Shown here: positions 7,722 through 38,496 of the stretch, piece after piece
How the letters are laid out: each line of letters begins with the position of its first letter
Numbering within the stretch: position 1 is the first letter of the stretch
Assembly: GCF_048403405.1 (NCBI RefSeq)
Contig: NZ_CP183129.1
Direction: 5' to 3' (one strand)
Source: Escherichia coli
Lineage (GTDB): Bacteria; Pseudomonadota; Gammaproteobacteria; Enterobacterales; Enterobacteriaceae
DNA length: 64,000 nucleotides
The notes under the pieces: generated by a model
The model's database searches: none
What the model saw: the letters and a program-made list of their open reading frames with translations, nothing else
What the model was told of the DNA's origin: nothing
Made by a program: the position numbers and the translations under genes

Positions 7722-9035
<1,314 letters not shown>

Positions 9036-10260: not shown

Positions 10261-10932
10261 ATGCAGTACCCGATTAACGAGATGTTCCAGACCCTGCAAG
10301 GTGAGGGTTACTTTACCGGCGTCCCCGCCATTTTTATTCGTTTACAGGGATGCCCGGTTGGCTGTGCCTGGTGCGACACCAAACACACCTGGGAAAAGCT
10401 TGAGGATCGGGAAGTCTCCCTTTTCAGCATTCTGGCGAAGACCAAAGAGAGTGATAAGTGGGGGGCGGCGAGCAGTGAAGACTTGCTGGCTGTCATTGGT
10501 CGCCAGGGATACACCGCGCGGCATGTGGTGATTACGGGTGGTGAGCCTTGCATTCATGATTTGCTGCCACTGACTGACCTGCTCGAAAAGAACGGTTTTA
10601 GCTGCCAGATCGAAACCAGTGGTACTCATGAAGTACGCTGCACACCGAATACCTGGGTTACCGTATCGCCAAAGCTGAACATGCGCGGCGGCTATGAAGT
10701 GTTGTCACAGGCACTGGAGCGAGCCAACGAAATCAAGCATCCAGTGGGACGCGTGCGTGATATTGAAGCACTGGATGAACTACTGGCAACACTGACCGAT
10801 GATAAACCGCGAGTCATTGCGCTGCAGCCGATTAGCCAAAAGGAAGATGCTACTCGTTTATGTATCGATACGTGCATTGCGCGCAACTGGCGTTTGTCGA
10901 TGCAAACACATAAATATTTAAATATTGCCTGA
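10261..10932 (+). CDS. queE: 7-carboxy-7-deazaguanine synthase QueE (radical SAM)
   Basis: 223-aa ORF MQYPINEMFQTLQGEGYFTGVPAIFIRLQGCPVGCAWCDTKH with radical-SAM Cys motif. Confidence 0.92.
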   Translation: MQYPINEMFQTLQGEGYFTGVPAIFIRLQGCPVGCAWCDTKHTWEKLEDREVSLFSILAKTKESDKWGAASSEDLLAVIGRQGYTARHVVITGGEPCIHDLLPLTDLLEKNGFSCQIETSGTHEVRCTPNTWVTVSPKLNMRGGYEVLSQALERANEIKHPVGRVRDIEALDELLATLTDDKPRVIALQPISQKEDATRLCIDTCIARNWRLSMQTHKYLNIA

Positions 10933-11169
10933 TTAAACATTTATAAGCGTTATAAATGGGTGGAACCTGTAAAGACTTCTACTCATTTATATTCTTTGTC
11001 GCCTCTAAAAAACCTCCATTTTGCCCATCCTGGACTAATCATTATCATTTTCTACAAATTCTGTGGTGTTAATTTTTCGTTGGAGTGAAAATTATTGCGG
11101 TGAAATTTGGTAGATTTTAGTTTGAATAGAGTTATTTTAAATATTTATCTTTTTAATCAATGGATTAAA

Positions 11170-11270
11170 TGCTCTTTAACATAATGGATGTGTTGTTTGT
11201 GTGATCCTGTAAAGTTGGTAGATTGTGACTGGCTTAAAAAATCATTAATTAATAATAGGTTATGTTTAGA
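11170..11270 (+). promoter_or_regulatory. CRISPR leader (AT-rich) of the queE-proximal array
   Basis: AT-rich sequence directly upstream of repeat 1; contains GTTGGTAGATTGT (about 11214-11226) 57 nt before the first repeat, the same motif and spacing as upstream of the cas2-proximal array. Confidence 0.7.
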
Positions 11271-12031
11271 GTGTTCCCCGCGCCAGCGGGGATAAACCGC
11301 GTTCAGCGTTGCTGGGCTGCGCAATGGACTGGTGTTCCCCGCGCCAGCGGGGATAAACCGCGGAGTTTTCACGGAACGCACAGCGAATTATGGTGTTCCC
11401 CGCGCCAGCGGGGATAAACCGCCGATAAATTTTCGCCCCGTTTCCAGCGCCGCGTGTTCCCCGCGCCAGCGGGGATAAACCGTTCAAACTGTAGGGATCG
11501 GCAATGGTGCCGAAGTGTTCCCCGCGCCAGCGGGGATAAACCGGGGCATTAGAATAACTTAAATGGAAAAAGAAAGTGTTCCCCGCGCCAGCGGGGATAA
11601 ACCGTCAGCCAGCACATAATTTTTATAGTCAGTATTGTGTTCCCCGCGCCAGCGGGGATAAACCGAAAGAGGTTATCGAGCGATATAACGCGTCCATGTG
11701 TTCCCCGCGCCAGCGGGGATAAACCGGTGCCTGGCGTCCATCTATTCACATGCCGCGCGTGTTCCCCGCGCCAGCGGGGATAAACCGTATTGGCGACGAT
11801 GGCATACCAGGACTACTCCGTGTTCCCCGCGCCAGCGGGGATAAACCGGCTCAGCGTCTGCTCTGGTGCCTCGCCCGTGAGTGTTCCCCGCGCCAGCGGG
11901 GATAAACCGGACCGTTACGGGCGCGTTCTTGGACTTGTTGAGTGTTCCCCACATCAGCGGGGATAAACCGGACACAGAGCGCCGCTATAGCGCCTATGCC
12001 AAGAGTTTCCCGCACCAGCGGGAATAAACCA
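11271..12031 (+). CRISPR. CRISPR array (CRISPR2.1-like): 13 repeats, 12 spacers of 32 nt
   Basis: 29-nt repeat GTGTTCCCCGCGCCAGCGGGGATAAACCG at 61-nt period starting 11271, 11332, 11393 ... 12003; repeat 12 degenerate (CCCCACATCAGCGGGG), terminal repeat 13 degenerate (GAGTTTCCCGCACCAGCGGGAATAAACCA). Frame anchored on ORF-track entries that translate repeats as RFIPAGAGNT/GLSPLARGT. Confidence 0.97.
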
Positions 12032-12485
12032 CCATATAACCCGTTATCTCTTTCTCAAGTTTTTATATTAGCTGTACTTGTAATAAGCAACATATCCACG
12101 TAACACCTCATGTTCAAAATAGTTCTCCATGTCAGAGAAGTTCACAATTATCGATACAAAAAATTAAATTTAATCAAAGTGTTATTTGTATGATTCTTAA
12201 ATCGTTAAGAAATTTTAATCTATTATTTTTTTAATATTGAATTAATGCCTGTTAATTTTTTCTTTAGAATAACAGTGTGTTTTTTAAGCTTGTTATTCAT
12301 TGATTAAGTAATAAATCTGGAAGTTTGTCTTTGTTTTGAGGCTAATGAGTGGTTTTACATAACCGTCTCTATAGGCTGTTGATGAATAGTTCTTATGAAT
12401 AAAGATATCCAGTTCATACTTTAAATGAAAATTGATAAAGTACGGTTTGCGTTGTCTTTTATTCTAAAGACATCGAGTGTAGTTA

Positions 12486-12624
12486 ATATTCCTTGTAAAA
12501 ACAGGGATAAACCGAACTAGTTAAAGTTTTTATTATGTTCCCTGCATCAGCGGGGATAAACCGGACTTGTTATCATTTTTTAAGTTGTCGAACTTATGTT
12601 CCCCACGTCAGCGGGGATAACCAT
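12486..12624 (+). CRISPR. Degenerate CRISPR remnant (CRISPR2.2-3-like), about 3 decayed repeat units
   Basis: Repeat-like units ending ACAGGGATAAACCG (12501-12514), ATGTTCCCTGCATCAGCGGGGATAAACCG (12535-12563) and ATGTTCCCCACGTCAGCGGGGATAACCA (12596-12623), separated from the main array by about 450 bp of AT-rich DNA. Confidence 0.7.
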
Positions 12625-12669
12625 TCAGGTATGTTCAGGCCGGGCAGTTTCCCGCCCGGTCTTCCTCAC

Positions 12670-14148
12670 TTACGCATTCGACCAGCTCTGGATCGAATCC
12701 GCATTCCCCAATTCCCCATGCATCACTTCATACGATTTTTTCAGGATTACATCAGTATGTTTGGTTAACTCCTTGAAAATGCCTTTATTCATCGCGTTGT
12801 AGCGTTTGGCGTTGCTCTCAACAGGCATAAAGATATCTTTCACGCGAACCATTTTGTCGACAGCCGTTGCGTAATCCGGGTATAGCCCCAGACCTACCGC
12901 CGTATTAATCGCTGCCCCCAGGCTTGCACAACCATTAATGGCGTTACGGCGTGCCGGAAGGTTGAACACGTCGGCAAAAATCTGCATAAACAGATCGCTG
13001 TTCGAACCGCCGCCAGTAATGATCACATGCTTTGCAAAGTGATTCATTTCATTACACATATTGTCGTAATTGTTCTTCAGCGTCAGCGCCACGCTTTCCA
13101 GTATCGAACGATATATCCATGCGTAATCCATGCTGGAATCAAAGCCAATCATAATCCCGCGTTTGTACGGTTCCCACGGATTGGTCAGCCAGTCCAGCAC
13201 CGTCATCAGACCATTACAGCCTGGCGGCACACAAGACGCTTTTTTGTTGAGCAAATCTTCCGGTGAAAGATCCTGTGCTTTGGCATCCTGAATTAACGAC
13301 TCGCCTAACATGTCGCGTAGCCAGCTCACCGTCCACATGCCTTTGCGAATACCGTAACCTTCATACAGCAAGGTTTGCGGAATAGAAGACATAATCGGCC
13401 AGTACGCTACCGGATCTTTCGGTAGTAATTTGCCGTTCATCATCAACGCGATGTAAGTGCCAAGAGAAATTACCGCAGTTTCATCATCCAGTAACCCGGC
13501 TCCCAGTGCTTCTACCGGTTTATCACTGGTGGTACAAACAACCGGCAGCCCAGCCGGGAAATGTGTCGCCAGCGCGGCTTGAGGAGTGATATGCCCAAGA
13601 ACAGTGCCCGGCATTTGCACATCAAACAGCATATGACGGGGGATATTAAACTTCTCCATGACTGCGGCATCTTCACTCCATGCCCAGGTCTTATAATCCA
13701 CCGGCCACTGACCAAAATAGTTGGCGATATTGTCTTTAAACTCGCCGGTTAAGCGATGCGTCAGATAACCCGAAAAAGAGGTGACATATGCCACGTCAGG
13801 ATTCGTATGTTCGTAAGGGCGTGTAACGCGTGCATCCTGCCAGCTAATCAACGGCGCAGCTGGCGTGCCATCGGCTTTCAATAACGCACGGCAGCAACGG
13901 ATGGATCCCAGACCAATACCGACAATATCTTCTTTATTTCCGGCAAACTGACTCATCAAATCGTGACCGGCAAAGCATAATGATGCCCATAAATCGTCGT
14001 CAGGATGTTCTGCGGTATCGGCATCTGGCGTGTGCATCGGCTGCAATAAGCCTTTGCCTTCGCAAACCACATTACCTTCCAGATCGTACATCACCACTTT
14101 TGTGCTCTGACTTCCACCATCAATCCCTATGATGTATTTTTTCGACAT
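12670..14148 (-). CDS. ygcE: FGGY-family carbohydrate kinase YgcE
   Basis: 492-aa ORF MSKKYIIGIDGGSQSTKVVMYDLEG... typical of FGGY sugar kinase N-terminus. Confidence 0.9.
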   Translation of the reverse strand: MSKKYIIGIDGGSQSTKVVMYDLEGNVVCEGKGLLQPMHTPDADTAEHPDDDLWASLCFAGHDLMSQFAGNKEDIVGIGLGSIRCCRALLKADGTPAAPLISWQDARVTRPYEHTNPDVAYVTSFSGYLTHRLTGEFKDNIANYFGQWPVDYKTWAWSEDAAVMEKFNIPRHMLFDVQMPGTVLGHITPQAALATHFPAGLPVVCTTSDKPVEALGAGLLDDETAVISLGTYIALMMNGKLLPKDPVAYWPIMSSIPQTLLYEGYGIRKGMWTVSWLRDMLGESLIQDAKAQDLSPEDLLNKKASCVPPGCNGLMTVLDWLTNPWEPYKRGIMIGFDSSMDYAWIYRSILESVALTLKNNYDNMCNEMNHFAKHVIITGGGSNSDLFMQIFADVFNLPARRNAINGCASLGAAINTAVGLGLYPDYATAVDKMVRVKDIFMPVESNAKRYNAMNKGIFKELTKHTDVILKKSYEVMHGELGNADSIQSWSNA

Positions 14149-27726: not shown

Positions 27727-28461
27727 ATGTCCAAACTCGATCTAAACGCCCTGAACGAACTGCCGAAGGTAGATCGCATTCTGGCGCTGGCGGAAACTAA
27801 CGCCGAACTGGAAAAACTGGACGCTGAAGGCCGCGTTGCTTGGGCGCTGGATAATCTGCCCGGTGAATATGTACTTTCTTCTAGCTTTGGCATTCAGGCG
27901 GCGGTGAGCCTGCATCTGGTGAATCATATTCGCCCGGATATTCCAGTGATCCTCACCGATACCGGTTATCTGTTCCCGGAAACCTACCGCTTTATTGACG
28001 AGTTAACGGACAAACTCAAGCTCAACCTGAAAGTGTACCGTGCTACCGAAAGCGCGGCCTGGCAGGAAGCACGCTACGGCAAACTGTGGGAACAGGGCGT
28101 TGAAGGCATTGAAAAGTACAATGACATCAACAAAGTCGAACCGATGAACCGGGCGCTGAAAGAACTTAACGCGCAAACCTGGTTTGCTGGCCTGCGCCGT
28201 GAACAATCCGGCAGCCGCGCCAATTTACCGGTGCTGGCAATTCAGCGTGGCGTATTTAAAGTGCTGCCGATTATCGACTGGGATAACCGAACTATTTATC
28301 AGTACCTGCAAAAACATGGCCTGAAATATCACCCATTATGGGACGAAGGATATTTATCGGTGGGCGATACCCATACAACCCGTAAATGGGAACCCGGCAT
28401 GGCGGAAGAAGAAACGCGTTTCTTTGGCTTAAAAAGGGAATGTGGGTTACACGAAGGGTAA
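27727..28461 (+). CDS. cysH: Phosphoadenosine phosphosulfate (PAPS) reductase
   Basis: [31 protein letters not shown]...; internal ATG chosen because the ORF-track start (27574) would read through the REP element. Confidence 0.95.
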
Positions 28462-28478
28462 ATATTGCCGGATAAATT

Positions 28479-28518
28479 AAACGCCTCTGTCAGAAATGAT
28501 GGGGGCGTTTTTATTTTG
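28479..28518 (+). terminator. Terminator-like hairpin after cysH
   Basis: ACGCCTC...GGGGGCGT stem followed by TTTTTATTTT. Confidence 0.5.
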
Positions 28519-28725
28519 CGAGCAGCATTCCGGCATTTAAAGGTGAACATCGCAGGGAGAATTAACAGGTATAGAATGGAGTTGGGTGCTTGAGGCTGTC
28601 TGGCGTTAAGCATTCGCGAGGTTCCAGATGGACAAAAGCCCCAGGCGATATTTCTATCAACCTGAGGCCAGCGTTCGAACCTAAGCAATTCGAATGTTAG
28701 TCTCTTCTTTGCAGGGAGGCAAGAC

Positions 28726-28878
28726 ATGCTGACAAAATATGCCCTTGTGGCAATCATCGTACTGTGTTGTACAGTACTGGGATTCACGCTGATGGTAGGC
28801 GACTCGTTGTGTGAGTTGAGTATCAGAGAACGTGGTATGGAGTTTAAGGCAGTTCTCGCTTACGAATCGAAGAAGTAG
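28726..28878 (+). CDS. Hok/Gef-family type I toxin (50 aa), not in ORF track
   Basis: ATG at 28726 preceded by AGGGAGG RBS; translation [50 protein letters not shown] has the Hok-family TM helix and C-terminal ...AYES.K signature; frame anchored against the antisense ORF 28681..28935. Confidence 0.8.
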
Positions 28879-29115: not shown

Positions 29116-31773
29116 GTGACTTTCTTTGATTTCTGGGGAAAAACCCGACGTGGCGAGAAAGAGGGTGGTGACGACTATCACCTTCTTTGCTGGCATTCGC
29201 TGGATGTAGCCGCGATGGGCTATTTAATGGTTAAAAGCAATTGCTTCGGGCTGGCTGACTATTTTCGTCAACTAGGTTTCGCTGATACGGAGCAGGCAGC
29301 ACAATTTTTCGCCTGGTTGCTGTGCTGGCACGATACTGGAAAATTTGCCCGCTCTTTTCAGCAACTTTACCTGCACCCGCAACTCAAGGTTCCGGAAAGC
29401 TCTAGAAAAAATTACGAAAAAATCTCTCATTCAACGCTGGGTTACTGGTTGTGGCACCATTATTTAAGTGAATGCGAAGAATTGCTTCCTTCATCTTCAC
29501 TCTCTCCGCGCAAACTTAAACGGGTGATAGAGATGTGGATGCCCATGACTACCGGGCATCATGGTCGCCCGCCTGACCGTATGGATGAACTGGATAATTT
29601 TCTGCCTGAAGACAAAGCCGCCGCGCGAGATTTTCTCCTTGTAATCAAGGCACTGTTTCCTCTCATCGAGATCCCCGCATTCTGGGATGATGACGATGGC
29701 GTTGAACTTTTAAAACAACTTTCCTGGTATATCTCTGCAACTGTCGTACTTGCAGACTGGACGGGATCGTCAACGCGATTTTTTCCACGCGTCGCGCAGG
29801 CAATGGATATTGAAGATTACTGGCAGAAGGCTTTAGTTCAGGCTCAAAACGCATTAACCGTCTTTCCTCCAAAAGCACAAACCGCGCCTTTCACCGGAAT
29901 TAATACGCTGTTTCCTTTTATTGAGCACCCGACACCGTTACAGCAAAAGGTGCTGGATCTGGATATCAGCCAGCCTGGGCCACAGTTATTTATTCTGGAG
30001 GATGTGACTGGCGCAGGTAAAACAGAAGCGGCGCTTATCCTGGCCCACAGGTTGATGGCTGCGGGGAAAGCACAGGGTTTGTTTTTTGGCCTGCCAACAA
30101 TGGCAACGGCCAATGCCATGTACGATCGGCTGGTAAAAACCTGGCTTGCTTTCTATTCGCCAGAATCCCGCCCCAGCCTGGTGCTGGCACACAGTGCCCG
30201 CACATTAATGGACCGCTTTAATGAATCACTCTGGTCCGGTGATTTAGTCGGGTCAGAAGAACCGGATGAACAAGCGTTCAGTCAGGGATGTGCGGCCTGG
30301 TTTGCCGACAGTAACAAGAAGGCGTTGCTGGCTGAAATTGGCGTCGGCACGCTGGATCAGGCGATGATGGCGGTGATGCCGTTTAAACATAATAATCTGC
30401 GGCTTCTGGGACTGAGTAACAAAATCCTGCTGGCTGATGAGATCCATGCCTGTGACGCTTACATGTCGTGCATTCTTGAAGGATTGATTGAGCGGCAGGC
30501 GCGTGGCGGAAACAGCGTTATTTTGCTTTCTGCCACGTTATCTCAACAGCAGCGCGACAAACTCGTTGCTGCCTTTGCGCGTGGTGCAGAGGGTCAGCAA
30601 GAAGCTCCGTTCCTGGAAAAGGATGATTACCCCTGGCTGACGCACGTTACGAAATCGGATGTGCATTCACACCGGGTAGCAACGCGCAAAGACGTTGAGC
30701 GTAGCGTGAGCGTGGGTTGGCTTCATAGCGAACAAGAGTGTATTGCGCGTATCGAATCGGCGGTAAGTCAGGGGAAATGCATCGCCTGGATCCGGAATTC
30801 TGTCGATGATGCTATTAAAGTTCATCGTCAGTTGCTTGCCCGCGGCGTCATTCCTGCTTCCAGCCTTTCTCTGTTTCATAGCCGCTTTGCTTTTAGCGAT
30901 CGCCAGCGAATTGAAACGGAAACGCTGGCACGCTTCGGTAAAGAAGATAGCTCACAGCGTGCCGGAAAAGTCCTCATTTGTACTCAGGTCTTAGAGTCGA
31001 GCGTTGATTGCGATATGGACGAAATGATTTCCGACCTGGCCCCTGTTGATTTGCTGATCCAGCGAGCGGGGCGATTACAGCGGCATATCCGCGATATTAA
31101 TGGTCAGTTAAAGCGTGACGGAAAAGACGAGCGTTCTCCTCCTGAATTGCTGATTCTGGCCCCCGTCTGGGACGACGCTCCAGGTGACGAATGGTTCGGC
31201 AGTGCCATGCGTAACAGTGCATATGTCTATCCCGATCATGGACGAATCTGGCTGACGCAGCGTGTACTGCGTGAGCAAGGCGCGATTCAAATGCCACACG
31301 CAGCCCGCCTTCTTATTGAATCAGTCTACGGTGAGGACGTGGTAATGCCGGAAGGATTTGCCCGCAGCGAGCAGGAACAAGTGGGCAAATATTACTGCGA
31401 TCGCGCAATGGCTAAAAAGTTTGTGCTGAACTTCAGGCCCGGCTATGCCGCCAATATCAACGATTACCTCCCGGAAAAGCTGTCGACACGTCTGGCTGAG
31501 GAGTCTGTTTCCCTGTGGCTGGCTACCTGTATTGACGGTGTGGTGAAGCCTTATGCCACCGGTGCTCACGCATGGGAAATGAGCGTTGTCAGAGTGCGTC
31601 GAAGCTGGTGGAAAAAACATTGCGATGAGTTTTCTTTACTGGAAGGGGAAGCGTTCAGGCAGTGGTGCGTTGAACAGCGGCAAGATCCGGAGATGGCAAA
31701 TGTGATTTTAGTTACCGATGACGAAAGTTGCGGGTATTCGGCTAGGGAGGGATTGATTGGTAAGGTTGATTGA
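29116..31773 (+). CDS. cas3: Cas3 HD nuclease/helicase (type I-E)
   Basis: 885-aa ORF, GTG start; HD motif (WHDTGK), Walker A (GAGKTEAA) and DEIHA helicase motif. Confidence 0.93.
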   Translation: MTFFDFWGKTRRGEKEGGDDYHLLCWHSLDVAAMGYLMVKSNCFGLADYFRQLGFADTEQAAQFFAWLLCWHDTGKFARSFQQLYLHPQLKVPESSRKNYEKISHSTLGYWLWHHYLSECEELLPSSSLSPRKLKRVIEMWMPMTTGHHGRPPDRMDELDNFLPEDKAAARDFLLVIKALFPLIEIPAFWDDDDGVELLKQLSWYISATVVLADWTGSSTRFFPRVAQAMDIEDYWQKALVQAQNALTVFPPKAQTAPFTGINTLFPFIEHPTPLQQKVLDLDISQPGPQLFILEDVTGAGKTEAALILAHRLMAAGKAQGLFFGLPTMATANAMYDRLVKTWLAFYSPESRPSLVLAHSARTLMDRFNESLWSGDLVGSEEPDEQAFSQGCAAWFADSNKKALLAEIGVGTLDQAMMAVMPFKHNNLRLLGLSNKILLADEIHACDAYMSCILEGLIERQARGGNSVILLSATLSQQQRDKLVAAFARGAEGQQEAPFLEKDDYPWLTHVTKSDVHSHRVATRKDVERSVSVGWLHSEQECIARIESAVSQGKCIAWIRNSVDDAIKVHRQLLARGVIPASSLSLFHSRFAFSDRQRIETETLARFGKEDSSQRAGKVLICTQVLESSVDCDMDEMISDLAPVDLLIQRAGRLQRHIRDINGQLKRDGKDERSPPELLILAPVWDDAPGDEWFGSAMRNSAYVYPDHGRIWLTQRVLREQGAIQMPHAARLLIESVYGEDVVMPEGFARSEQEQVGKYYCDRAMAKKFVLNFRPGYAANINDYLPEKLSTRLAEESVSLWLATCIDGVVKPYATGAHAWEMSVVRVRRSWWKKHCDEFSLLEGEAFRQWCVEQRQDPEMANVILVTDDESCGYSAREGLIGKVD

Positions 31774-31798
31774 GATGCCCTGGAGTCGGAGGACTCCA

Positions 31799-31889
31799 GG
31801 GCCTATCCCCGCTGACGCGGGGAACGGAATAACAGAGTAACAGGAGCTACCTCTTACTGCTGGTTTATCCCTACGTTAATAGGGAAGAA
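31799..31889 (-). repeat. Two degenerate CRISPR-repeat-like units in inverted orientation in the cas3-cse1 intergenic region
   Basis: 31799-31827 GGGCCTATCCCCGCTGACGCGGGGAACGG matches the reverse complement of the repeat at 23/29 positions; 31861-31889 TGGTTTATCCCTACGTTAATAGGGAAGAA matches at 17/29 and keeps a CCCTA/TAGGG stem; start-to-start spacing 62 nt. Confidence 0.6.
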
Positions 31890-32238
31890 GGGAGTATAGC
31901 ATCTACTGAGATGAATTTGTTTTGATATTTAATGTGAACTTCCTCTTACTGCCTTTACATTTTTCTATGCGAGGAGTAATCTTTGCTCAGTTTGGGAGAG
32001 TTGAGTTTTTTTTACCCAAATATAGGCTCTGGATACAGGACTGATTGGTTATTCCAGAGTATGAGAATTATGTAAGAGGGTTGTACCATGGAAGAAAAGA
32101 CCTCCCGCTGTAAACGACTGTTTTGTCGACTAATGGTTCGTTTTGGTAAAAGGTTGTCAGTTAGTTTTCAGTTATCGGTTAACTAAAGGTTTAAGGGATG
32201 ACAAATGCCATGGAAGGTGATTTTAATAAGGAATAGTT

Positions 32239-33801
32239 ATGTACCCTACTAGTTTAATTACTTCCCCGTGGTTGCCTGTTCGTTTCAAAGACGGAACGAC
32301 AGGCAAGCTGGCGCCAGTCGATCTGGCTGATGAAAATGTTGTCGATATCGCTGCGCCTCGGGCAGATCTCCAGGGGGCGGCATGGCAGTTTTTGCTGGGA
32401 CTATTACAAACCAGCTTCGCGCCAAAAGATCAACGTCGTTGGGATGACATCTGGGAAGACGGACTGGAAGCTGAAAAGCTACGGGAAGCATTGCTGTCAT
32501 TAGACCATGCTTTCCAGTTCGGGCCAGATTCACCTTCATTTATGCAGGATTTTGAGGCGCTCACGGGAGATAAAGTTCCGGTCGCTTCGCTACTGCCTGA
32601 GATTCCCGGCGTTCAAACAACAAAGTTTAATAAAGACCACTTTATCAAGCGTGGTGTAACGGAACACCTGTGCCCACAGTGTTCTGCACTAGCCTTGTTC
32701 TCTCTACAGTTAAATGCACCGTCAGGCGGCAAAGGCTATCGCACCGGTTTACGCGGCGGTGGGCCGATGACGACTCTCATTGAATTACAGGAATATCAGG
32801 GCAATCAACAAACACCCTTGTGGCGCAAACTGTGGCTCAACGTGATGCCGCAGGATGAAGCCGACTTACCGCTACCCAAAAAATTTGACGATCTGATTTT
32901 CCCCTGGCTAGGCCCGACGCGTACCAGCGAACTGGCCGGTGCGGTGGTAACCCATGATCAGGTCAATAAACTCCAGGCGTACTGGGGAATGCCGCGGCGT
33001 ATACGTATTGATTTTAATACCACGACAGTCGGCAACTGCGATATTTGCGACGAGCAGAACGACGCGCTCCTGAGCCTGATGACGACCAAAAATTACGGTG
33101 CCAATTATGCCATGTGGCAGCATCCCTTAACGCCTTACCGTGTACCACTTAAAGAGGGTGGCGAGTTTTACTCCGTTAAACCACAACCGGGCGGTTTAAT
33201 CTGGCGCGACTGGTTAGGCCTTATCGAAACGGGTAAATCAGAAAACAATACGGAACTTCCCGCGCTGGTGGTGAAACTCTTTAATGCCAGCAGTCTGAAA
33301 CAGGCAAAAGTGGGCCTATGGGGATTTGGTTATGATTTTGACAACATGAAAGCGCGCTGTTGGTACGAACACCATTTCCCGCTACTGCTCAATAAAAAAG
33401 AAGGCCAGATACCGAAGCTGCGGCTGGCTGCGCAAACGGCTTCACGGATTCTGAGTCTGTTACGGAGTGCATTGAAAGAAGCATGGTTCTCCGATCCAAA
33501 AGGTGCAAGGGGTGATTTCAGTTTTGTGGATATCGACTTCTGGAACAAAACTCAGCATCGCTTCCTGAGGTTAGTGCGCCAAATTGAAGAAGGTCAGGAT
33601 GCGGATGAATTACTCGGCAAATGGCAAAAGGAAATTTGGTTATTCGCGCGTCAGGATTTTGACGAGCGTGTATTCACTAATCCTTATGAGCCCGTTGATT
33701 TGAAACGCGTCATGACCGCGCGCAAGAAATATTTTACAACATCGGCGGAGAAGCAAAGTGCTAAAGCCGCCAGGGAGAAAAAGCAGGAGGCTGCTGAATG
33801 A
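32239..33801 (+). CDS. casA: Cse1 / CasA, large subunit of Cascade (type I-E)
   Basis: 520-aa ORF first in the Cascade operon; divergent from the K-12 CasA sequence as I recall it. Confidence 0.85.
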   Translation: MYPTSLITSPWLPVRFKDGTTGKLAPVDLADENVVDIAAPRADLQGAAWQFLLGLLQTSFAPKDQRRWDDIWEDGLEAEKLREALLSLDHAFQFGPDSPSFMQDFEALTGDKVPVASLLPEIPGVQTTKFNKDHFIKRGVTEHLCPQCSALALFSLQLNAPSGGKGYRTGLRGGGPMTTLIELQEYQGNQQTPLWRKLWLNVMPQDEADLPLPKKFDDLIFPWLGPTRTSELAGAVVTHDQVNKLQAYWGMPRRIRIDFNTTTVGNCDICDEQNDALLSLMTTKNYGANYAMWQHPLTPYRVPLKEGGEFYSVKPQPGGLIWRDWLGLIETGKSENNTELPALVVKLFNASSLKQAKVGLWGFGYDFDNMKARCWYEHHFPLLLNKKEGQIPKLRLAAQTASRILSLLRSALKEAWFSDPKGARGDFSFVDIDFWNKTQHRFLRLVRQIEEGQDADELLGKWQKEIWLFARQDFDERVFTNPYEPVDLKRVMTARKKYFTTSAEKQSAKAAREKKQEAAE

Positions 33802-34334
33802 GTATTGTAAAAGAGGAGCACAAAGCCACGCTGCGTAAATGGCACGAAGAGTTGCAGGAAAAACGCGGCAATCGTGCCAGTCTGCGGCGTAGCACAACGG
33901 TTAATGATGTTTGTCTGTCAGAAGGGTTTCGTTCTCTGCTGATGCAGACCCACACGTTGTGGAAAATTGAATCACAGGAGTGGCGTTTTACCGCACTGGC
34001 ACTGGTTGCCGCCGTTGCCGCCAATGTAAAAGCCATTGATGAACGGCAGCCTTTTGCCGCGCAGTTGGCGGCGGTAATGTCTGAGGGGCGTTTTACTCGC
34101 CTGTCGGCAGTCAAAACGCCGGATGAATTACTGCGCCAGTTACGTCGCGCGGTCAAATTATTAAATGGTTCCGTCAATCTTATCTCTTTGGCAGACGATA
34201 TTTTCCGCTGGTGCCAGGAGAGCGACGATCTGCTCAATCATCACCGCCGCCAGCAGCGGCCAACAGAATTTATCCGTATCCGCTGGGCGCTGGAATATTA
34301 CCAGGCTGGCGACGCCGATAACGAACAAAATTAA
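33798..34334 (+). CDS. casB: Cse2 / CasB, small subunit of Cascade
   Basis: 178-aa ORF overlapping the casA stop by 4 nt. Confidence 0.85.
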   Translation: MSIVKEEHKATLRKWHEELQEKRGNRASLRRSTTVNDVCLSEGFRSLLMQTHTLWKIESQEWRFTALALVAAVAANVKAIDERQPFAAQLAAVMSEGRFTRLSAVKTPDELLRQLRRAVKLLNGSVNLISLADDIFRWCQESDDLLNHHRRQQRPTEFIRIRWALEYYQAGDADNEQN

Positions 34335-34348
34335 TAAAGGACTATCTC

Positions 34349-35404
34349 ATGACGACATTTATTCAGCTTCATTTGTTAACCGCTTACCCTGCTGCCAACC
34401 TTAACCGTGATGACACCGGTGCGCCAAAAACTGTGGTACTGGGTGGAGCAACGCGTCTGCGCGTTTCCTCACAAAGTCTGAAACGTGCGTGGCGCACTTC
34501 TGCACTTTTTGAACAGGCACTGGCGGGCCATATTGGTATTCGCAGTGGGCGTATTGCGCGTGAGGCGGCAACTATCCTGATTGAGAAAGGCATCGAAGAG
34601 AAAAAAGCCATCGAATGGGCGGCAAAAATTGCGGATTATCTTGGGAAAGCTAAAAACGACAAAAAACCAAAAGATCCGCTCACTAACGCCGAAACTGAAC
34701 AGCTAGTCCATATCAGCCCGGCAGAATTTGACGCCGTAAAAGCGCTGGCCCATCAACTGGCCGAAGAAAAGCGCGCGCCAAAAGAGGAAGATCTCGCTTT
34801 GTTACGTAAAGATCGCATGGCGGTAGATATCGCTATGTTTGGTCGTATGCTGGCGAATAAACCCGAATTTAATGTTGAAGCCGCCTGCCAGGTCGCGCAT
34901 GCATTTGGTGTCAGTGAAACGATTGTCGAAGATGATTTTTTCACCGCCGTTGATGATTTGCGCCAGGCTTCTGAAGATGCCGGTGCCGGGCATCTCGGAG
35001 AAACCGGATTCGGTTCAGCACTTTTCTACACCTATATCTGCATTGATAAAGATCTGCTGGTCGAAAACCTCGGCGGTGACGAAGCGTTAGCTAATCAGAC
35101 CATACGCGCCTTTACGGAAGCTGCGCTTAAAGTCTCCCCCACCGGTAAACAAAACAGTTTTGCCAGCCGTGCCTACGCCTCCTGGGCGCTGGCAGAAAAA
35201 GGCACCGAACAACCGCGTTCTCTGGCGGCGGCTTTCTATGAACCCATTAATGGCACCCGTCAGTTAGATGTGGCGGTGCAGCGTATTACAACGCTTCGCG
35301 AAAATATGAATACGGTCTACGAACAGAAGACCGAATGCACAAGTTTTGACGTGATGAACAAACAGGGAAGCATGAAGGACGTGCTGGACTTTATCTGCGC
35401 GTAA
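34349..35404 (+). CDS. casC: Cas7e / CasC, Cascade backbone subunit
   Basis: 351-aa ORF MTTFIQLHLLTAYPAANLNRDDTGAPKTVVLGGATRLRVSSQSLKRAWR, same N-terminal pattern as E. coli CasC. Confidence 0.92.
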   Translation: MTTFIQLHLLTAYPAANLNRDDTGAPKTVVLGGATRLRVSSQSLKRAWRTSALFEQALAGHIGIRSGRIAREAATILIEKGIEEKKAIEWAAKIADYLGKAKNDKKPKDPLTNAETEQLVHISPAEFDAVKALAHQLAEEKRAPKEEDLALLRKDRMAVDIAMFGRMLANKPEFNVEAACQVAHAFGVSETIVEDDFFTAVDDLRQASEDAGAGHLGETGFGSALFYTYICIDKDLLVENLGGDEALANQTIRAFTEAALKVSPTGKQNSFASRAYASWALAEKGTEQPRSLAAAFYEPINGTRQLDVAVQRITTLRENMNTVYEQKTECTSFDVMNKQGSMKDVLDFICA

Positions 35405-35414
35405 GGGGCGGCTT

Positions 35415-36161
35415 ATGAGCCAATATCTGATTTTTCAGCTTCATGGGCCGATGGCATCCTGGGGCGTCGATGCCCCCGGTGAAGTGCGTCATACCCATGA
35501 ACTGCCTTCGCGCTCAGCATTGCTGGGGCTGCTGGCTGCCGGGGTAGGGATTCGGCGTGATGATACCGAACGCTTAAACGCGTTTAATCGCCACTATTCA
35601 CTGGTGGTTTGCGCCAGCCGTAACCCGCGCTGGGCACGGGATTATCACACGGTCCAGATGCCAAAAGAGGTGCGTAAAGCGCGTTATTTCAGCCGTCGCG
35701 AAGAGTTGAGCGACCCTGATCTTCTGAGCGCGATTATCTCCCGGCGCGACTACTACACCGATGCCTGGTGGATGGTGGCGGTGGCAACAACAGCCGATGC
35801 GCCTTACAGCCTCGAACAGTTGCAGGAAGGTTTACGCCATCCGGTTTTTCCGCTTTATCTGGGGAGAAAAAGTCATCCGCTGGCGTTACCACTTGCGCCG
35901 TTACTGCTCGAAGGCAACGCGTCTGATGTCTTACGTAACGCATACCAACAGTATCAGGATCGTTTCCACGAACTGAAAGTCTCACTCCCGAAACTTCAGG
36001 ATGAATGCTGGTGGGAAGGGGAGCACGATGGCCTGGTCGCGAGCAAAATATTACGCCGCCGGGATGTTCCTTTAAATCGTCAGCAGTGGCTGTTTGGGGA
36101 ACGCACCGTCAATCAGGGGCCGTGGCTCAGCAAGGAGAAACCATGTACCTCTCAAGAATAA
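35415..36161 (+). CDS. casD: Cas5e / CasD
   Basis: 248-aa ORF MSQYLIFQLHGPMASWG..., Cas5 N-terminal signature. Confidence 0.9.
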   Translation: MSQYLIFQLHGPMASWGVDAPGEVRHTHELPSRSALLGLLAAGVGIRRDDTERLNAFNRHYSLVVCASRNPRWARDYHTVQMPKEVRKARYFSRREELSDPDLLSAIISRRDYYTDAWWMVAVATTADAPYSLEQLQEGLRHPVFPLYLGRKSHPLALPLAPLLLEGNASDVLRNAYQQYQDRFHELKVSLPKLQDECWWEGEHDGLVASKILRRRDVPLNRQQWLFGERTVNQGPWLSKEKPCTSQE

Positions 36162-36789
36162 CCTTACATACCGGCCAGCTTTCGCCTGCGCAGTTGCTGC
36201 ATCTGGTGGATCGCGGTGAATATGTGATGCATCAGTGGCTGTGGGATCTTTTCCCCGGCGGCAAAGAAAGGCAATTTCTTTATCGTCGGGAAGAACTCCA
36301 GGGGGCGTTTCGCTTTTTTGTCCTGTCGCAGGAACGCCCGGCGGAAAGTGATATTTTCACCATCGAATGCCGACCATTTGCGCCAGAGTTGCGTACCGGA
36401 CAATCCCTTTGTTTCAACCTGCAGGCGAATCCAACAATTTGTAAAGCGGGCAAACGCCACGACTTGCTGATGGAGGCGAAACGGCAGGTGAGGGGGCAGG
36501 TGGAAGGAAGTGATGTCTGGTTGCATCAACAACAGGCTGCGCTGGACTGGCTGGCAGCGCAGGGGGAGAGAAGCGGTTTTACACTGCTGGATACTTCGGT
36601 TGATGCCTACCGACAACAGCAACTGCGGCGGGAAAACTCCCGGCAACTGATCCAGTTCAGTAGCGTGGATTATACGGGGATGCTTACGGTCACCGATCCT
36701 AGGTTATTTCTGCAACGTCTCAGTCAGGGGTATGGCAAAAGCCGGGCGTTCGGTTGTGGTCTGATGCTGATCAAACCCGGAGCAGAGGC

Positions 36790-36793
<4 letters not shown>
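36143..36793 (+). CDS. casE: Cas6e / CasE, crRNA-processing endoribonuclease
   Basis: Internal ATG at 36143 with AAGGAG RBS gives MYLSRITLHTG...; C-terminal G-rich loop GCGLMLIKP; overlaps casD end. Confidence 0.9.
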
Positions 36794-38003
<1,210 letters not shown>

Positions 38004-38099
38004 GTTATCCGTTCTTTAAAAATAAGGAAATGTTTGAATTTAGTTGGTAGATTGTTGATGTGAAATAAAGTTGTTTAAAAACAGATATGTATGCTTAGT
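38004..38099 (+). promoter_or_regulatory. CRISPR leader of the cas2-proximal array
   Basis: AT-rich 96 bp between cas2 and repeat 1; GTTGGTAGATTGT at about 38044-38056, 57 nt before the first repeat. Confidence 0.75.
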
Positions 38100-38496
38100 G
38101 TGTTCCCCGCGCCAGCGGGGATAAACCGAATACGCAACAGTGTTTTTATTGACAACACCGGTGTTCCCCGCGCCAGCGGGGATAAACCGGCAACGCCAGT
38201 AAATCAGACCAACGGCGCTGGGTGTTCCCCGCGCCAGCGGGGATAAACCGCGTTGTTTTGCCGGGTCGGGTGAATATATCGTAGTGTTCCCCGCGCCAGC
38301 GGGGATAAACCGGCCAGATTTCCAGTTCACTGGTCTTCGCGGCAAGTGTTCCCCGCGCCAGCGGGGATAAACCGAATGAGAGCTGACAGGTGTATGTCAT
38401 CAGTACGTGTTCCCCGCACCAGCGGGGATAAACCGTAATATTAGACTAATGTTTTTTTGTTGAGTTCGTGTTCCCCGCGCCAGCGGGGAACTCCCA
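38100..38496 (+). CRISPR. CRISPR array (CRISPR I, cas-adjacent): 7 repeats, 6 spacers (32-33 nt)
   Basis: Repeat GTGTTCCCCGCGCCAGCGGGGATAAACCG at 38100, 38161, 38222, 38284, 38346, 38407 (one G-to-A change) and a truncated terminal repeat at 38468 (GTGTTCCCCGCGCCAGCGGGGAACTCCCA). Confidence 0.97.

What the first reader, a model, noticed from the sequence alone, without database searches (positions are those of the whole stretch)
12032..12624. Decayed second array adjacent to ygcE
Beyond the degenerate terminal repeat of the main array, about 450 bp of AT-rich DNA is followed by three decayed repeat units (one with a 20-nt rather than 32-nt spacer). This looks like a leader-plus-array relic, implying this locus once held more than one array or suffered internal deletion.
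Basis: seen in the sequence. Interest (0 to 1): 0.3.

Follow-up and report, generated by a model that had tools for sequence, protein, structure and literature searches.

The report
Known E. coli mini-array CRISPR2.2
This is CRISPR2.2, the small frozen CRISPR array that most E. coli carry next to ygcE and that has been described since 2010, so the finding is real but ordinary; the one twist is that the worn-looking repeats are among the best-conserved non-coding bases in the neighbourhood.

Summary
After the 13-repeat array (11271-12031) come 454 bp of 27.5% G+C DNA. Three type I-E repeat-like units follow: A 12486-12514 (19/29), B 12535-12563 (25/29) and C 12596-12624 (23/29). Their spacers are 20 and 32 nt. 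ygcE ends 46 nt further on.

[quoted passage not shown] K-12 has the same architecture, and about 4,036 of 5,426 complete genomes carry it.

Added here:
- Unit C is the ancestral terminal repeat. E. albertii, E. whittamii and a B2 E. coli run from leader 2.3 straight into it.
- The AT-rich interval has no detectable homologue in any known leader, plasmid or phage. Its position matches a published H-NS-bound "promoter island".
- Its 5' end holds one or two further vestigial repeats.
- CRISPR2.2 is not decaying neutrally. It differs by 3.3% between K-12 and a species-level Escherichia lineage, against 29% at ygcE four-fold sites.
- The spacers have no protospacers.

Verdict: already known, low interest. 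The "own leader" idea is neither shown nor excluded.

The parts
10933..11270 (+). Leader 2.3: AT-rich (29% G+C) sequence between the queE/ygcF stop codon and the first repeat of the main array.
   Evidence: Conserved across Escherichia: K-12 vs E69 5.9% different, K-12 vs E. albertii 6.5%. Named leader 2.3 in PMC3903273.
11271..12031 (+). CRISPR2.3 array: 13 repeats of 29 nt at a 61-nt period. Eleven are perfect; the last two are degenerate (11942 at 26/29, 12003 at 24/29). Twelve spacers.
   Evidence: NCBI's annotation pipeline (PGAP) marks the homologous array as 'CRISPR' in other genomes and stops exactly at its last repeat.
12032..12485 (.). AT-rich interval of 454 bp (27.5% G+C) separating CRISPR2.3 from CRISPR2.2. 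No ORF of 30 aa or more lies wholly inside it, and it has no terminal inverted repeats. By position it corresponds to the H-NS-bound 'promoter island' 2901670_347 of K-12.
   Evidence: No homologue in leaders, other enterobacterial loci, true plasmids or phages. PMC3661553 Table 1, mapped using the K-12 coordinates. The 5' two-thirds evolve at about the neutral rate.
12064..12092 (+). Position of vestigial repeat 'T3'. It is recognisable only in the divergent Escherichia lineage E69, exactly 32 nt after that strain's last good repeat (TCGTTCCCTGTATCAGCAATAAATAACAT, 16/29 to the consensus, 18/29 to unit B). It is eroded beyond recognition in the window.
12120..12148 (+). Vestigial repeat 'T4', TAGTTCTCCATGTCAGAGAAGTTCACAAT. 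It scores 16/29 here and 17/29 in K-12, and starts exactly 6 x 61 nt upstream of unit A. It is polymorphic among E. coli strains.
   Evidence: 0.5% of 2,000 dinucleotide shuffles of the K-12 interval reach 17/29, and 3.3% reach the window's 16/29. One search shows the polymorphism.
12341..12485 (+). Repeat-proximal part of the interval. It is more conserved than the rest: 6.9% segregating sites, against 28% in 12032-12340.
12486..12514 (+). CRISPR2.2 unit A, 19/29. The hairpin is kept through T-A, T-A and T.G replacements. The 3' handle ATAAACCG is intact.
   Evidence: Identical in all 8 E. coli sampled and in E69.
12515..12534 (+). Spacer 1, 20 nt, AACTAGTTAAAGTTTTTATT.
   Evidence: Only chance-level 20-mer hits in viral contigs, without an AWG motif upstream.
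12535..12563 (+). CRISPR2.2 unit B, 25/29. Hairpin intact with one G.U pair.
12564..12595 (+). Spacer 2, 32 nt, GACTTGTTATCATTTTTTAAGTTGTCGAACTT.
   Evidence: No protospacer in phages, plasmids or viral contigs; the only exact hits are the E. coli locus itself.
12596..12624 (+). CRISPR2.2 unit C, 23/29 here and 24/29 in K-12. It has the degenerate 3' end ATAACCAT. It is the ancestral terminal repeat of the whole CRISPR-II locus.
   Evidence: The same terminal repeat and flank end the single arrays of E. albertii, E. whittamii, Escherichia sp. MOD1-EC7003 and the B2 strain MS7163.
12640..12659 (.). G+C-rich hairpin CCGGGCAGTTTCCCGCCCGG between unit C and the ygcE stop codon. Probably the ygcE terminator.
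   Evidence: Read directly from the sequence. Conserved in all Escherichia loci examined.
12670..14148 (-). ygcE, an FGGY-family carbohydrate kinase, transcribed towards the arrays.
   Evidence: RefSeq annotation.
29116..38003 (+). Complete type I-E cas operon: cas3, cse1, cse2, cas7, cas5, cas6e, cas1, cas2.
38100..38496 (+). CRISPR2.1 array: 7 repeats, the last truncated, in the same orientation as CRISPR2.3 and CRISPR2.2.

Best explanation
The feature is CRISPR2.2, the small ygcE-proximal array of the E. coli type I-E CRISPR-II locus (ygcE-ygcF/queE). A 0.45-kb AT-rich, H-NS-bound interval separates it from the active array, CRISPR2.3.

It has three variant repeats and two fixed spacers. 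It is frozen: no spacer is gained or lost. The likely reason is that new spacers enter only at a working leader-first-repeat junction, and here the first repeat (A) is the most aberrant unit, with no recognisable integration leader beside it (inferred). Unit C is the original terminal repeat of the locus.

The two-array layout is old, being shared with an Escherichia lineage as distant in ygcE as E. albertii. Single arrays in B2 strains and other Escherichia species are best read as fusions by recombination between an upstream repeat and unit C (inferred).

Shown: identity, architecture, distribution, invariance, absence of protospacers. Inferred: why it is frozen, and the direction of the one-array/two-array change.
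For: Architecture and chance tests.

Literature. [quoted passage not shown] PMC3903273: CRISPR2.2 and CRISPR2.3 are separated by 0.5 kb between ygcE and ygcF, with leaders described only for 2.1 and 2.3. PMC10910852: a 0.5-kb AT-rich sequence splits CRISPR2. PMC3737337: K-12, O157 and BL21 all carry CRISPR2.2.

Same layout in K-12, 138/139 identical.

Population. The 638-bp region is present in 4,123 of 5,426 complete genomes. CRISPR2.2 alone is present in 4,036, at >=99% identity in 2,834 and below 95% in 3.

Outgroups. E. albertii, E. whittamii, Escherichia sp. MOD1-EC7003 and the B2 strain MS7163 have leader 2.3 followed by 1-3 repeats ending in a C-type repeat. That repeat starts G(A/G)G, like upstream repeats, rather than AT, like the 2.2 units, which is the hybrid expected from repeat-repeat recombination. 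Lineage E69 (ygcE 92.6% identical in nucleotides) has both arrays and the interval, with a 49-nt A/B deletion.

H-NS: PMC3661553 Table 1.

No protospacers.
Against: A truly inert fossil should drift, and it does not. K-12 vs E69 differ at 3/90 sites in CRISPR2.2, against 64/218 four-fold sites in ygcE (p = 4e-8) and 29/190 in the immediate non-coding flanks (p = 0.002). Polymorphism is reduced in proportion: 3.6% segregating sites against 34%. Some constraint, or a mutational or recombinational peculiarity, therefore acts on it, and the 'frozen fossil' account does not explain this.

The direction of change between one and two arrays was not tested on a species tree.

Transcription and processing were not examined.
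Confidence: 0.85

Rival explanations
1. One reading: CRISPR2.2 is the remnant of a self-contained second CRISPR locus. The AT-rich interval, or its last ~150-340 nt, is that locus's former leader. CRISPR2.3 is a separate array with its own decayed tail.
For: The interval sits upstream of unit A in the correct orientation and has leader-like composition (27.5% G+C, against 26-29% in the two leaders). Its repeat-proximal 145 nt are far more conserved than the distal part, as in real leaders. CRISPR2.3 has its own eroding tail (T1, T2, then vestiges T3 and T4) before the non-repeat DNA begins. Units A, B and C share a private 'AT' start not seen in CRISPR2.3 or in outgroup repeats, as if copied from one template repeat. 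One + strand IHF-consensus site lies in each of the three AT-rich regions.
Against: No similarity beyond shuffles to leader 2.3 or to either leader 2.1 type. No promoter-like site in the proximal 300 nt by a simple scan. The IHF match is more than 300 nt from unit A. The first repeat is the most degenerate unit, the opposite of an active array. The spacers have never varied. The papers read here name no leader 2.2.
Confidence: 0.35
2. Split-array model: one ancestral CRISPR-II array (leader 2.3 ... unit C) was cut in two when about 0.35-0.45 kb of foreign AT-rich DNA was inserted into its distal part. CRISPR2.2 is simply the old tail of that array.
For: PMC10910852 describes it this way. All single-array Escherichia loci end in the same C-type repeat and flank. 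In K-12 and E69 the last CRISPR2.3 repeat is almost perfect (28/29 and 29/29 to the A-type repeat GAGTTCCCCGCGCCAGCGGGGATAAACCG), unlike a normal degenerate terminal repeat. The interval is an H-NS-bound promoter island, a class the authors associate with horizontally acquired DNA. T4 and unit A are exactly 6 x 61 nt apart.
Against: No donor sequence was found in plasmids, phages or other enterobacterial loci. There are no terminal inverted repeats or IS/MITE hallmarks. There is no 61-nt periodic repeat signal across the central 337 nt. The two-array state occurs in a lineage as divergent as E. albertii, so single arrays need not be ancestral.
Confidence: 0.35
3. CRISPR2.2, with about 145 nt upstream, is a functional element kept by purifying selection. 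Candidates are a fixed crRNA carrying spacer 2, a stack of hairpins acting as a transcription boundary or 3'-end stabiliser between the converging CRISPR2.3 and yqcE-ygcE transcripts, or an H-NS/IHF architectural site.
For: Divergence and polymorphism are both cut about nine-fold relative to ygcE four-fold sites and 2-5-fold relative to the immediate flanks, with sharp edges at unit A. It is as conserved as the working leader 2.3 (5.9% between K-12 and E69). The proportional drop in both measures argues against a recent sweep or introgression. Hairpins are preserved in A and B, and in C in K-12. The 5' handles ATAAACCG of A and B are intact, so Cas6e processing of a spacer-2 crRNA is conceivable. 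Vestiges T3 and T4 a few hundred nt away did decay.
Against: Only one divergent lineage (E69) and eight E. coli strains were compared. Short recombination patches at repeats cannot be excluded. About a quarter of complete genomes, including the B2 strain and three other Escherichia species examined, lack A, B and both spacers. No target for either spacer was found, including in the three E. coli chromosomes filed in the plasmid database, whose only match at that sensitivity was the locus itself. Promoter islands are reported to be transcriptionally silenced. The 31-aa ORF 12425-12520 is not conserved as a protein.
Confidence: 0.3
4. Chance resemblance: the three units are not repeat-derived.
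For: Unit A alone (19/29) is matched by one unrelated site in the window.
Against: B and C score 25 and 23 of 29, against a background maximum of 19 over 128,000 positions. Spacing, orientation and hairpin register all fit. The same units occur in about 4,000 genomes.
Confidence: 0.01

Closest known systems
CRISPR2.2 of E. coli K-12 and most E. coli (CRISPR-II locus, ygcE-ygcF; nomenclature attributed to Diez-Villasenor et al. 2010 in PMC4489801 and PMC3903273)
   Same: Same place, orientation and architecture: A, a 20-nt spacer, B, a 32-nt spacer, C. It lies 454 bp from CRISPR2.3 and 46 nt from the ygcE stop. 138 of 139 nt are identical to K-12.
   Different: Only strain-level single-base changes. 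Here unit C has G10>A, which breaks one stem pair. The last CRISPR2.3 repeat carries a compensated C6-G21 to T-A change.
CRISPR2.2-3, the single fused array of some E. coli (e.g. B2 strain MS7163) and of E. albertii and E. whittamii
   Same: Same leader 2.3 and the same terminal repeat with its ygcE-side flank (...GGGGATAACCAT | TCAGGTATGTTCAGG).
   Different: Those loci lack the AT-rich interval, units A and B, and both fixed spacers. Their terminal repeat starts G(A/G)G rather than AT.
Active type I-E arrays CRISPR2.1 and CRISPR2.3
   Same: Same repeat family, 29-nt length, hairpin and 61-nt period. They are in the same window, in the same orientation as a complete cas operon.
   Different: Active arrays have perfect repeats, strain-specific spacers and a defined leader with promoter and integration signals. 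CRISPR2.2 has variant repeats, one short spacer, no turnover and no demonstrable leader.
H-NS-bound 'promoter islands' of E. coli K-12 (PMC3661553)
   Same: The AT-rich interval coincides by position with island 2901670_347 (ygcE/queE), listed as H-NS-bound in all the ChIP studies that paper compiled.
   Different: That class is defined by the density of predicted start sites, not by CRISPR context. The mapping assumes the paper used U00096.2 coordinates (my own knowledge: a shift of about +1,977 bp to NC_000913.3).

Membership tests
CRISPR2.2 array of the E. coli CRISPR-II locus | Lies between ygcE and ygcF/queE, at the ygcE end | tested here: met
   queE 10261-10932, ygcE 12670-14148; units at 12486-12624.
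CRISPR2.2 array of the E. coli CRISPR-II locus | Three repeats and two spacers that do not vary between strains | tested here: met
   Three units with spacers of 20 and 32 nt. Present in 4,036 genomes; >=99% identical in 2,834 and below 95% in 3. Definition from PMC4489801.
CRISPR2.2 array of the E. coli CRISPR-II locus | Separated from CRISPR2.3 by about 0.5 kb of AT-rich DNA | tested here: met
   454 bp at 27.5% G+C. PMC3903273 and PMC10910852.
Type I-E (cluster 2) CRISPR array in general | Direct repeats of 29 nt matching the family consensus above chance | tested here: met
   B 25/29 and C 23/29, against a background maximum of 19. A is 19/29, supported by register and hairpin.
Type I-E (cluster 2) CRISPR array in general | Palindromic stem-loop (7 bp, 4-nt loop) in each repeat | tested here: met
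   A and B fold in the consensus register. C does so in K-12; in this window one pair (A10 x C17) is broken.
Type I-E (cluster 2) CRISPR array in general | Uniform 32-33-nt spacers (61-nt period) | tested here: inconclusive
   B to C is 61 nt; A to B is 49 nt, giving a 20-nt spacer.
Type I-E (cluster 2) CRISPR array in general | Adjacent leader with promoter and integration signals | tested here: inconclusive
   The upstream DNA is AT-rich and its proximal 145 nt are conserved. There is no similarity to known leaders and no proximal promoter or IHF match. The homology test lacks power, because leaders 2.1 and 2.3 do not match each other either.
Type I-E (cluster 2) CRISPR array in general | Spacers derived from mobile elements, with turnover between strains | tested here: not met
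   No protospacers. Spacers are fixed across the species and in lineage E69. It is therefore filed as an inactive array, not an active one.
Type I-E (cluster 2) CRISPR array in general | Transcribed and cut by Cas6e into crRNA | not testable with these tools
   Needs RNA data. Rfam gave no match in the region.

The most novel reading that the evidence does not exclude
CRISPR2.2 and the ~145 nt upstream of it are not a decaying relic. They would be an element held by purifying selection since before E. coli split from other Escherichia lineages, serving a role other than adaptive immunity. Candidates are one fixed crRNA (spacer 2, with intact handle and hairpins), or a hairpin/H-NS boundary that insulates ygcE from CRISPR2.3 read-through.
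Probability: 0.25. Interest if true: 0.5.

Novelty: already known. Interest (0 to 1): 0.18.

Why it matters
As a finding it adds nothing new. CRISPR2.2 has been described since 2010 and is used as a fixed landmark in E. coli CRISPR typing. It does matter for annotation: NCBI's pipeline and the K-12 reference record leave it unmarked, so sequence-only readers will keep rediscovering it.

One point has wider interest. A set of worn-looking repeats and two target-less spacers has stayed nearly unchanged while neighbouring non-coding DNA and synonymous sites diverged 15-30%. If that reflects selection, it would be a case of a CRISPR remnant put to a non-immune use in the best-studied bacterium.

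Tried and rejected
1. Leader homology. Local alignments of the interval against leader 2.3, the window's leader 2.1 and K-12's leader 2.1 gave z = 3.7, 0.4 and not significant. The best hit (11133-11179 vs 12211-12255) did not exceed the best shuffle and is not collinear with the repeat ends. blastn with word size 7 and nhmmer against the masked window and 31 enterobacterial loci found nothing.

2. Origin of the interval. No match in phages. In the plasmid database the only matches were three E. coli chromosomes mis-filed as plasmids. No terminal inverted repeats.

3. Idea that the whole interval is an eroded array. A scan for a 61-nt period, tolerant of C>T and G>A changes, found only the peak at 12120. 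Rejected for the central 337 nt.

4. Small protein. The ORF 12425-12520 (31 aa) shows three synonymous changes between the window and K-12. Against E69 it has mostly non-synonymous changes, and the 49-nt deletion shifts its end. Rejected.

5. Protospacers. Spacer 2 gave E >= 0.3 in phages, and the only exact hits were self-hits. Spacer 1 gave two 20-mer hits in metagenomic viral contigs without an AWG motif, about the number expected by chance (my own estimate).

6. Rfam at gathering and at E <= 1 thresholds: nothing relevant.

7. IHF consensus. The interval's hit (12172) is too far from unit A to mean much, with a chance probability of about 0.07 (my own estimate).

8. The simple promoter/terminator scan was no better than shuffles.

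9. A search for E69-like alleles among complete E. coli genomes found none.

10. The primary paper (Diez-Villasenor 2010) is not held in the library, so its content is cited second-hand.

Full report
**What is there**

The window is E. coli, 100% identical to strain MS 69-1 over the region. The gene order is eno (7737-9035), ygcG, queE/ygcF (10261-10932, +), a 338-bp AT-rich leader, an array of 13 repeats (11271-12031), the reported stretch, then ygcE (12670-14148, minus strand).

Eleven of the 13 repeats are perfect copies of GTGTTCCCCGCGCCAGCGGGGATAAACCG. The last two score 26/29 and 24/29.

The stretch 12032-12485 is 454 bp at 27.5% G+C. Three same-strand units follow:
- A, 12486-12514, 19/29.
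- B, 12535-12563, 25/29.
- C, 12596-12624, 23/29.

Their spacers are 20 and 32 nt.

A complete type I-E cas operon (29116-38003) and the CRISPR2.1 array (38100-38496) lie downstream in the same orientation.

**Is it more than chance?**

I scored every position of both strands against the consensus. Non-CRISPR sequence never exceeds 19/29, except for one 23/29 site that is itself a repeat relic (see "Noticed in passing"). B and C are therefore unambiguous.

A only ties the background maximum, but three things support it:
- It sits 49 nt before B, in the same orientation.
- It ends in an exact GGGATAAACCG.
- It folds into the same 7-bp stem and 4-nt loop, in the same register, as the consensus (-7.9 kcal/mol, z = -2.9). 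Two stem pairs are changed on both sides (C-G to T-A) and one to T.G.

**What it is**

The literature names it:
[quoted passage not shown] - PMC3737337: K-12, O157:H7 and BL21-AI all carry CRISPR2.2.

K-12 MG1655 has exactly this layout, with 138 of 139 nt identical. In NC_000913.3 it lies at 2,903,420-2,903,558.

The 638-bp region is present at >=80% coverage in 4,123 of 5,426 complete E. coli genomes.

Neither NCBI's annotation pipeline nor the K-12 reference record annotates it. The pipeline's CRISPR feature stops at the last CRISPR2.3 repeat in every genome I opened.

**Relatives outside E. coli**

I scanned one genome per bacterial species with YgcE. Repeats next to ygcE occur only in Escherichia.
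- E. albertii: leader 2.3 plus three repeats.
- E. whittamii: leader 2.3 plus a single repeat.
- Escherichia sp. MOD1-EC7003: three repeats plus a truncated one.
- B2 strain MS7163: leader 2.3 plus two repeats.

In every case the last repeat is the C type with the same flank (...GGGGATAACCAT | TCAGGTATGTTCAGG), and there is no AT-rich interval. Unit C is therefore the ancestral terminal repeat of the locus.

One further record (L033, labelled E. coli; ygcE about 92% identical in nucleotides) has no leader and no repeats at all.

One record, "E. coli E69", is as distant in ygcE (92.6% nucleotide identity) as E. albertii (93.0%). It has both arrays and a homologous but much diverged interval. 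Its CRISPR2.2 reads A, spacer 2, C. That is the product of a 49-nt deletion between the identical 3' ends of A and B.

The two-array state is therefore old. The terminal repeats of the single arrays start G(A/G)G, like upstream repeats, whereas A, B and C start AT. This is what recombination between an upstream repeat and unit C would produce. I take the fusions to be secondary, but I did not test this on a species tree.

**Is the interval a leader?**

Composition and position fit. Sequence does not.
- No similarity beyond shuffles to leader 2.3, the window's leader 2.1 or K-12's leader 2.1.
- No match in 31 enterobacterial loci.
- No match in phages. In the plasmid database the only matches are mis-filed E. 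coli chromosomes.

This test has little power, because leaders 2.1 and 2.3 do not match each other by the same test. Touchon and Rocha also noted that they are very different.

The interval has no ORF of 30 aa or more wholly inside it and no IS or MITE ends.

By position it corresponds to the "promoter island" 2901670_347 (ygcE/queE) of PMC3661553. That paper lists it as H-NS-bound in all the ChIP studies it compiled and describes the class as transcriptionally suppressed. The mapping assumes U00096.2 coordinates.

**New details**

1. The 5' end of the interval still contains array debris.
   - In E69 a unit TCGTTCCCTGTATCAGCAATAAATAACAT sits exactly 32 nt after the last good repeat. It scores 16/29 to the consensus and 18/29 to unit B.
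   - In E. coli a unit at 12120-12148 scores 16/29 (17/29 in K-12). Only 0.5% of 2,000 dinucleotide shuffles of the K-12 interval reach 17/29.
   - That unit starts exactly 6 x 61 nt before unit A.
   - The remaining 337 nt show no 61-nt periodicity.

2. CRISPR2.2 is not drifting.

| Segment | Segregating sites, 8 E. coli strains | K-12 vs E69 difference |
|---|---|---|
| ygcE four-fold sites | 34% | 29% |
| Interval 12032-12340 | 28% | 20-33% |
| Interval 12341-12485 | 6.9% | 15% |
| CRISPR2.2 (12486-12624) | 3.6% | 3.3% (3/90) |
| Gap between unit C and ygcE | 17.8% | 16% |

   - For the K-12 vs E69 comparison, Fisher's test gives p = 4e-8 against four-fold sites and p = 0.002 against the immediate flanks.
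   - The working leader 2.3 differs by 5.9% between K-12 and E69.
   - Across the population, 2,834 genomes are >=99% identical to the window over CRISPR2.2. Only 8 are over the whole 638 bp.
   - Polymorphism and divergence fall together. That fits a lower local substitution rate (constraint) better than a sweep or an introgression.
   - The sample is small, and short recombination patches at repeats cannot be excluded.

**Spacers**

Spacer 2 has no protospacer in 50,697 phage records, 72,556 plasmid records or 2.9 million viral contigs. The exact hits are the E. coli locus itself, mislabelled as a plasmid or as viral.

Spacer 1 gives two 20-mer hits with no AWG motif upstream, about what chance would give by my own estimate.

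**Conclusion**

The finding is real. It is the already described CRISPR2.2.

"Leader" is unproven. "Decayed" hides the fact that the sequence is frozen and unusually well conserved.

I rate it already known and of low interest. There is a modest open question: why does it not decay?

Noticed in passing
window 31799-31872, minus strand (cas3-cse1 intergenic region 31774-32238): An inverted mini-relic lies just after the cas3 stop codon. It has a partial repeat end (GTAGGGATAAACCAG), about 32 nt of spacer-like DNA, then a 23/29 repeat (CCGTTCCCCGCGTCAGCGGGGATAGGCCC) abutting the cas3 terminator hairpin. The 465-bp intergenic region occurs in only 6 of 5,426 complete E. coli genomes. Eight more share just the repeat-bearing 52-56 nt within two other long intergenic variants. 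One O55:H7 strain with a related cse1-cse2 (93% identical), the only other such strain opened, has a 97-bp spacer region without it.
   Followed up: partly
window 12003-12031: In this strain the last CRISPR2.3 repeat carries a compensated stem change relative to the other strains (C6-G21 to T6-A21), plus a change in the loop. The hairpin is kept at -11.9 kcal/mol.
   Followed up: partly
window 11942-11970 and 12596-12624: The penultimate CRISPR2.3 repeat and unit C both carry G10>A (CCCCAC...) in this strain, which breaks the same stem pair. Other strains have G at this position in unit C. This could be gene conversion between repeats.
   Followed up: no
window 12670-14148 (ygcE): ygcE is unusually diverse within E. 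coli. The window and K-12 differ at 15% of four-fold sites, and 34% of those sites segregate among eight strains. The adjacent intergenic DNA differs far less between the same pair of strains, which suggests a mosaic recombination history.
   Followed up: partly
window 28584-28741 (+): Rfam sok antitoxin RNA (111.7 bits), with a small minus-strand ORF region at 28329-28787. This is a hok/sok-type toxin-antitoxin locus just upstream of cas3.
   Followed up: no
window 38222-38407: Two CRISPR2.1 units have a 62-nt period (33-nt spacers). The terminal repeat at 38468 is truncated (…GGGGAACTCCC).
   Followed up: no
L091 (IMGVR_UViG_2531839665_000019); PLSDB records NZ_OL790696.1, NZ_CP141089.1, NZ_CP134663.1: Database artefacts. 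An IMG/VR 'viral' contig contains the chromosomal CRISPR-II locus. Three 4.8-4.9-Mb E. coli chromosomes are filed as plasmids. Both produce false 'protospacer' hits for these spacers.
   Followed up: yes
L033 (NZ_JAATUR010000008.1), between queE and ygcE: An Escherichia record labelled E. coli (ygcE about 92% identical) has only about 110 nt of unrelated AT-rich DNA between queE and the ygcE terminator. It has no leader and no repeats.
   Followed up: partly
window 11155-11167, 12172-12184, 37995-38007 (+): A perfect IHF consensus (WATCARNNNNTTR) lies on the array strand in each of the three AT-rich regions upstream of arrays. There are 13 matches in the whole window against 4.5 expected.
   Followed up: partly
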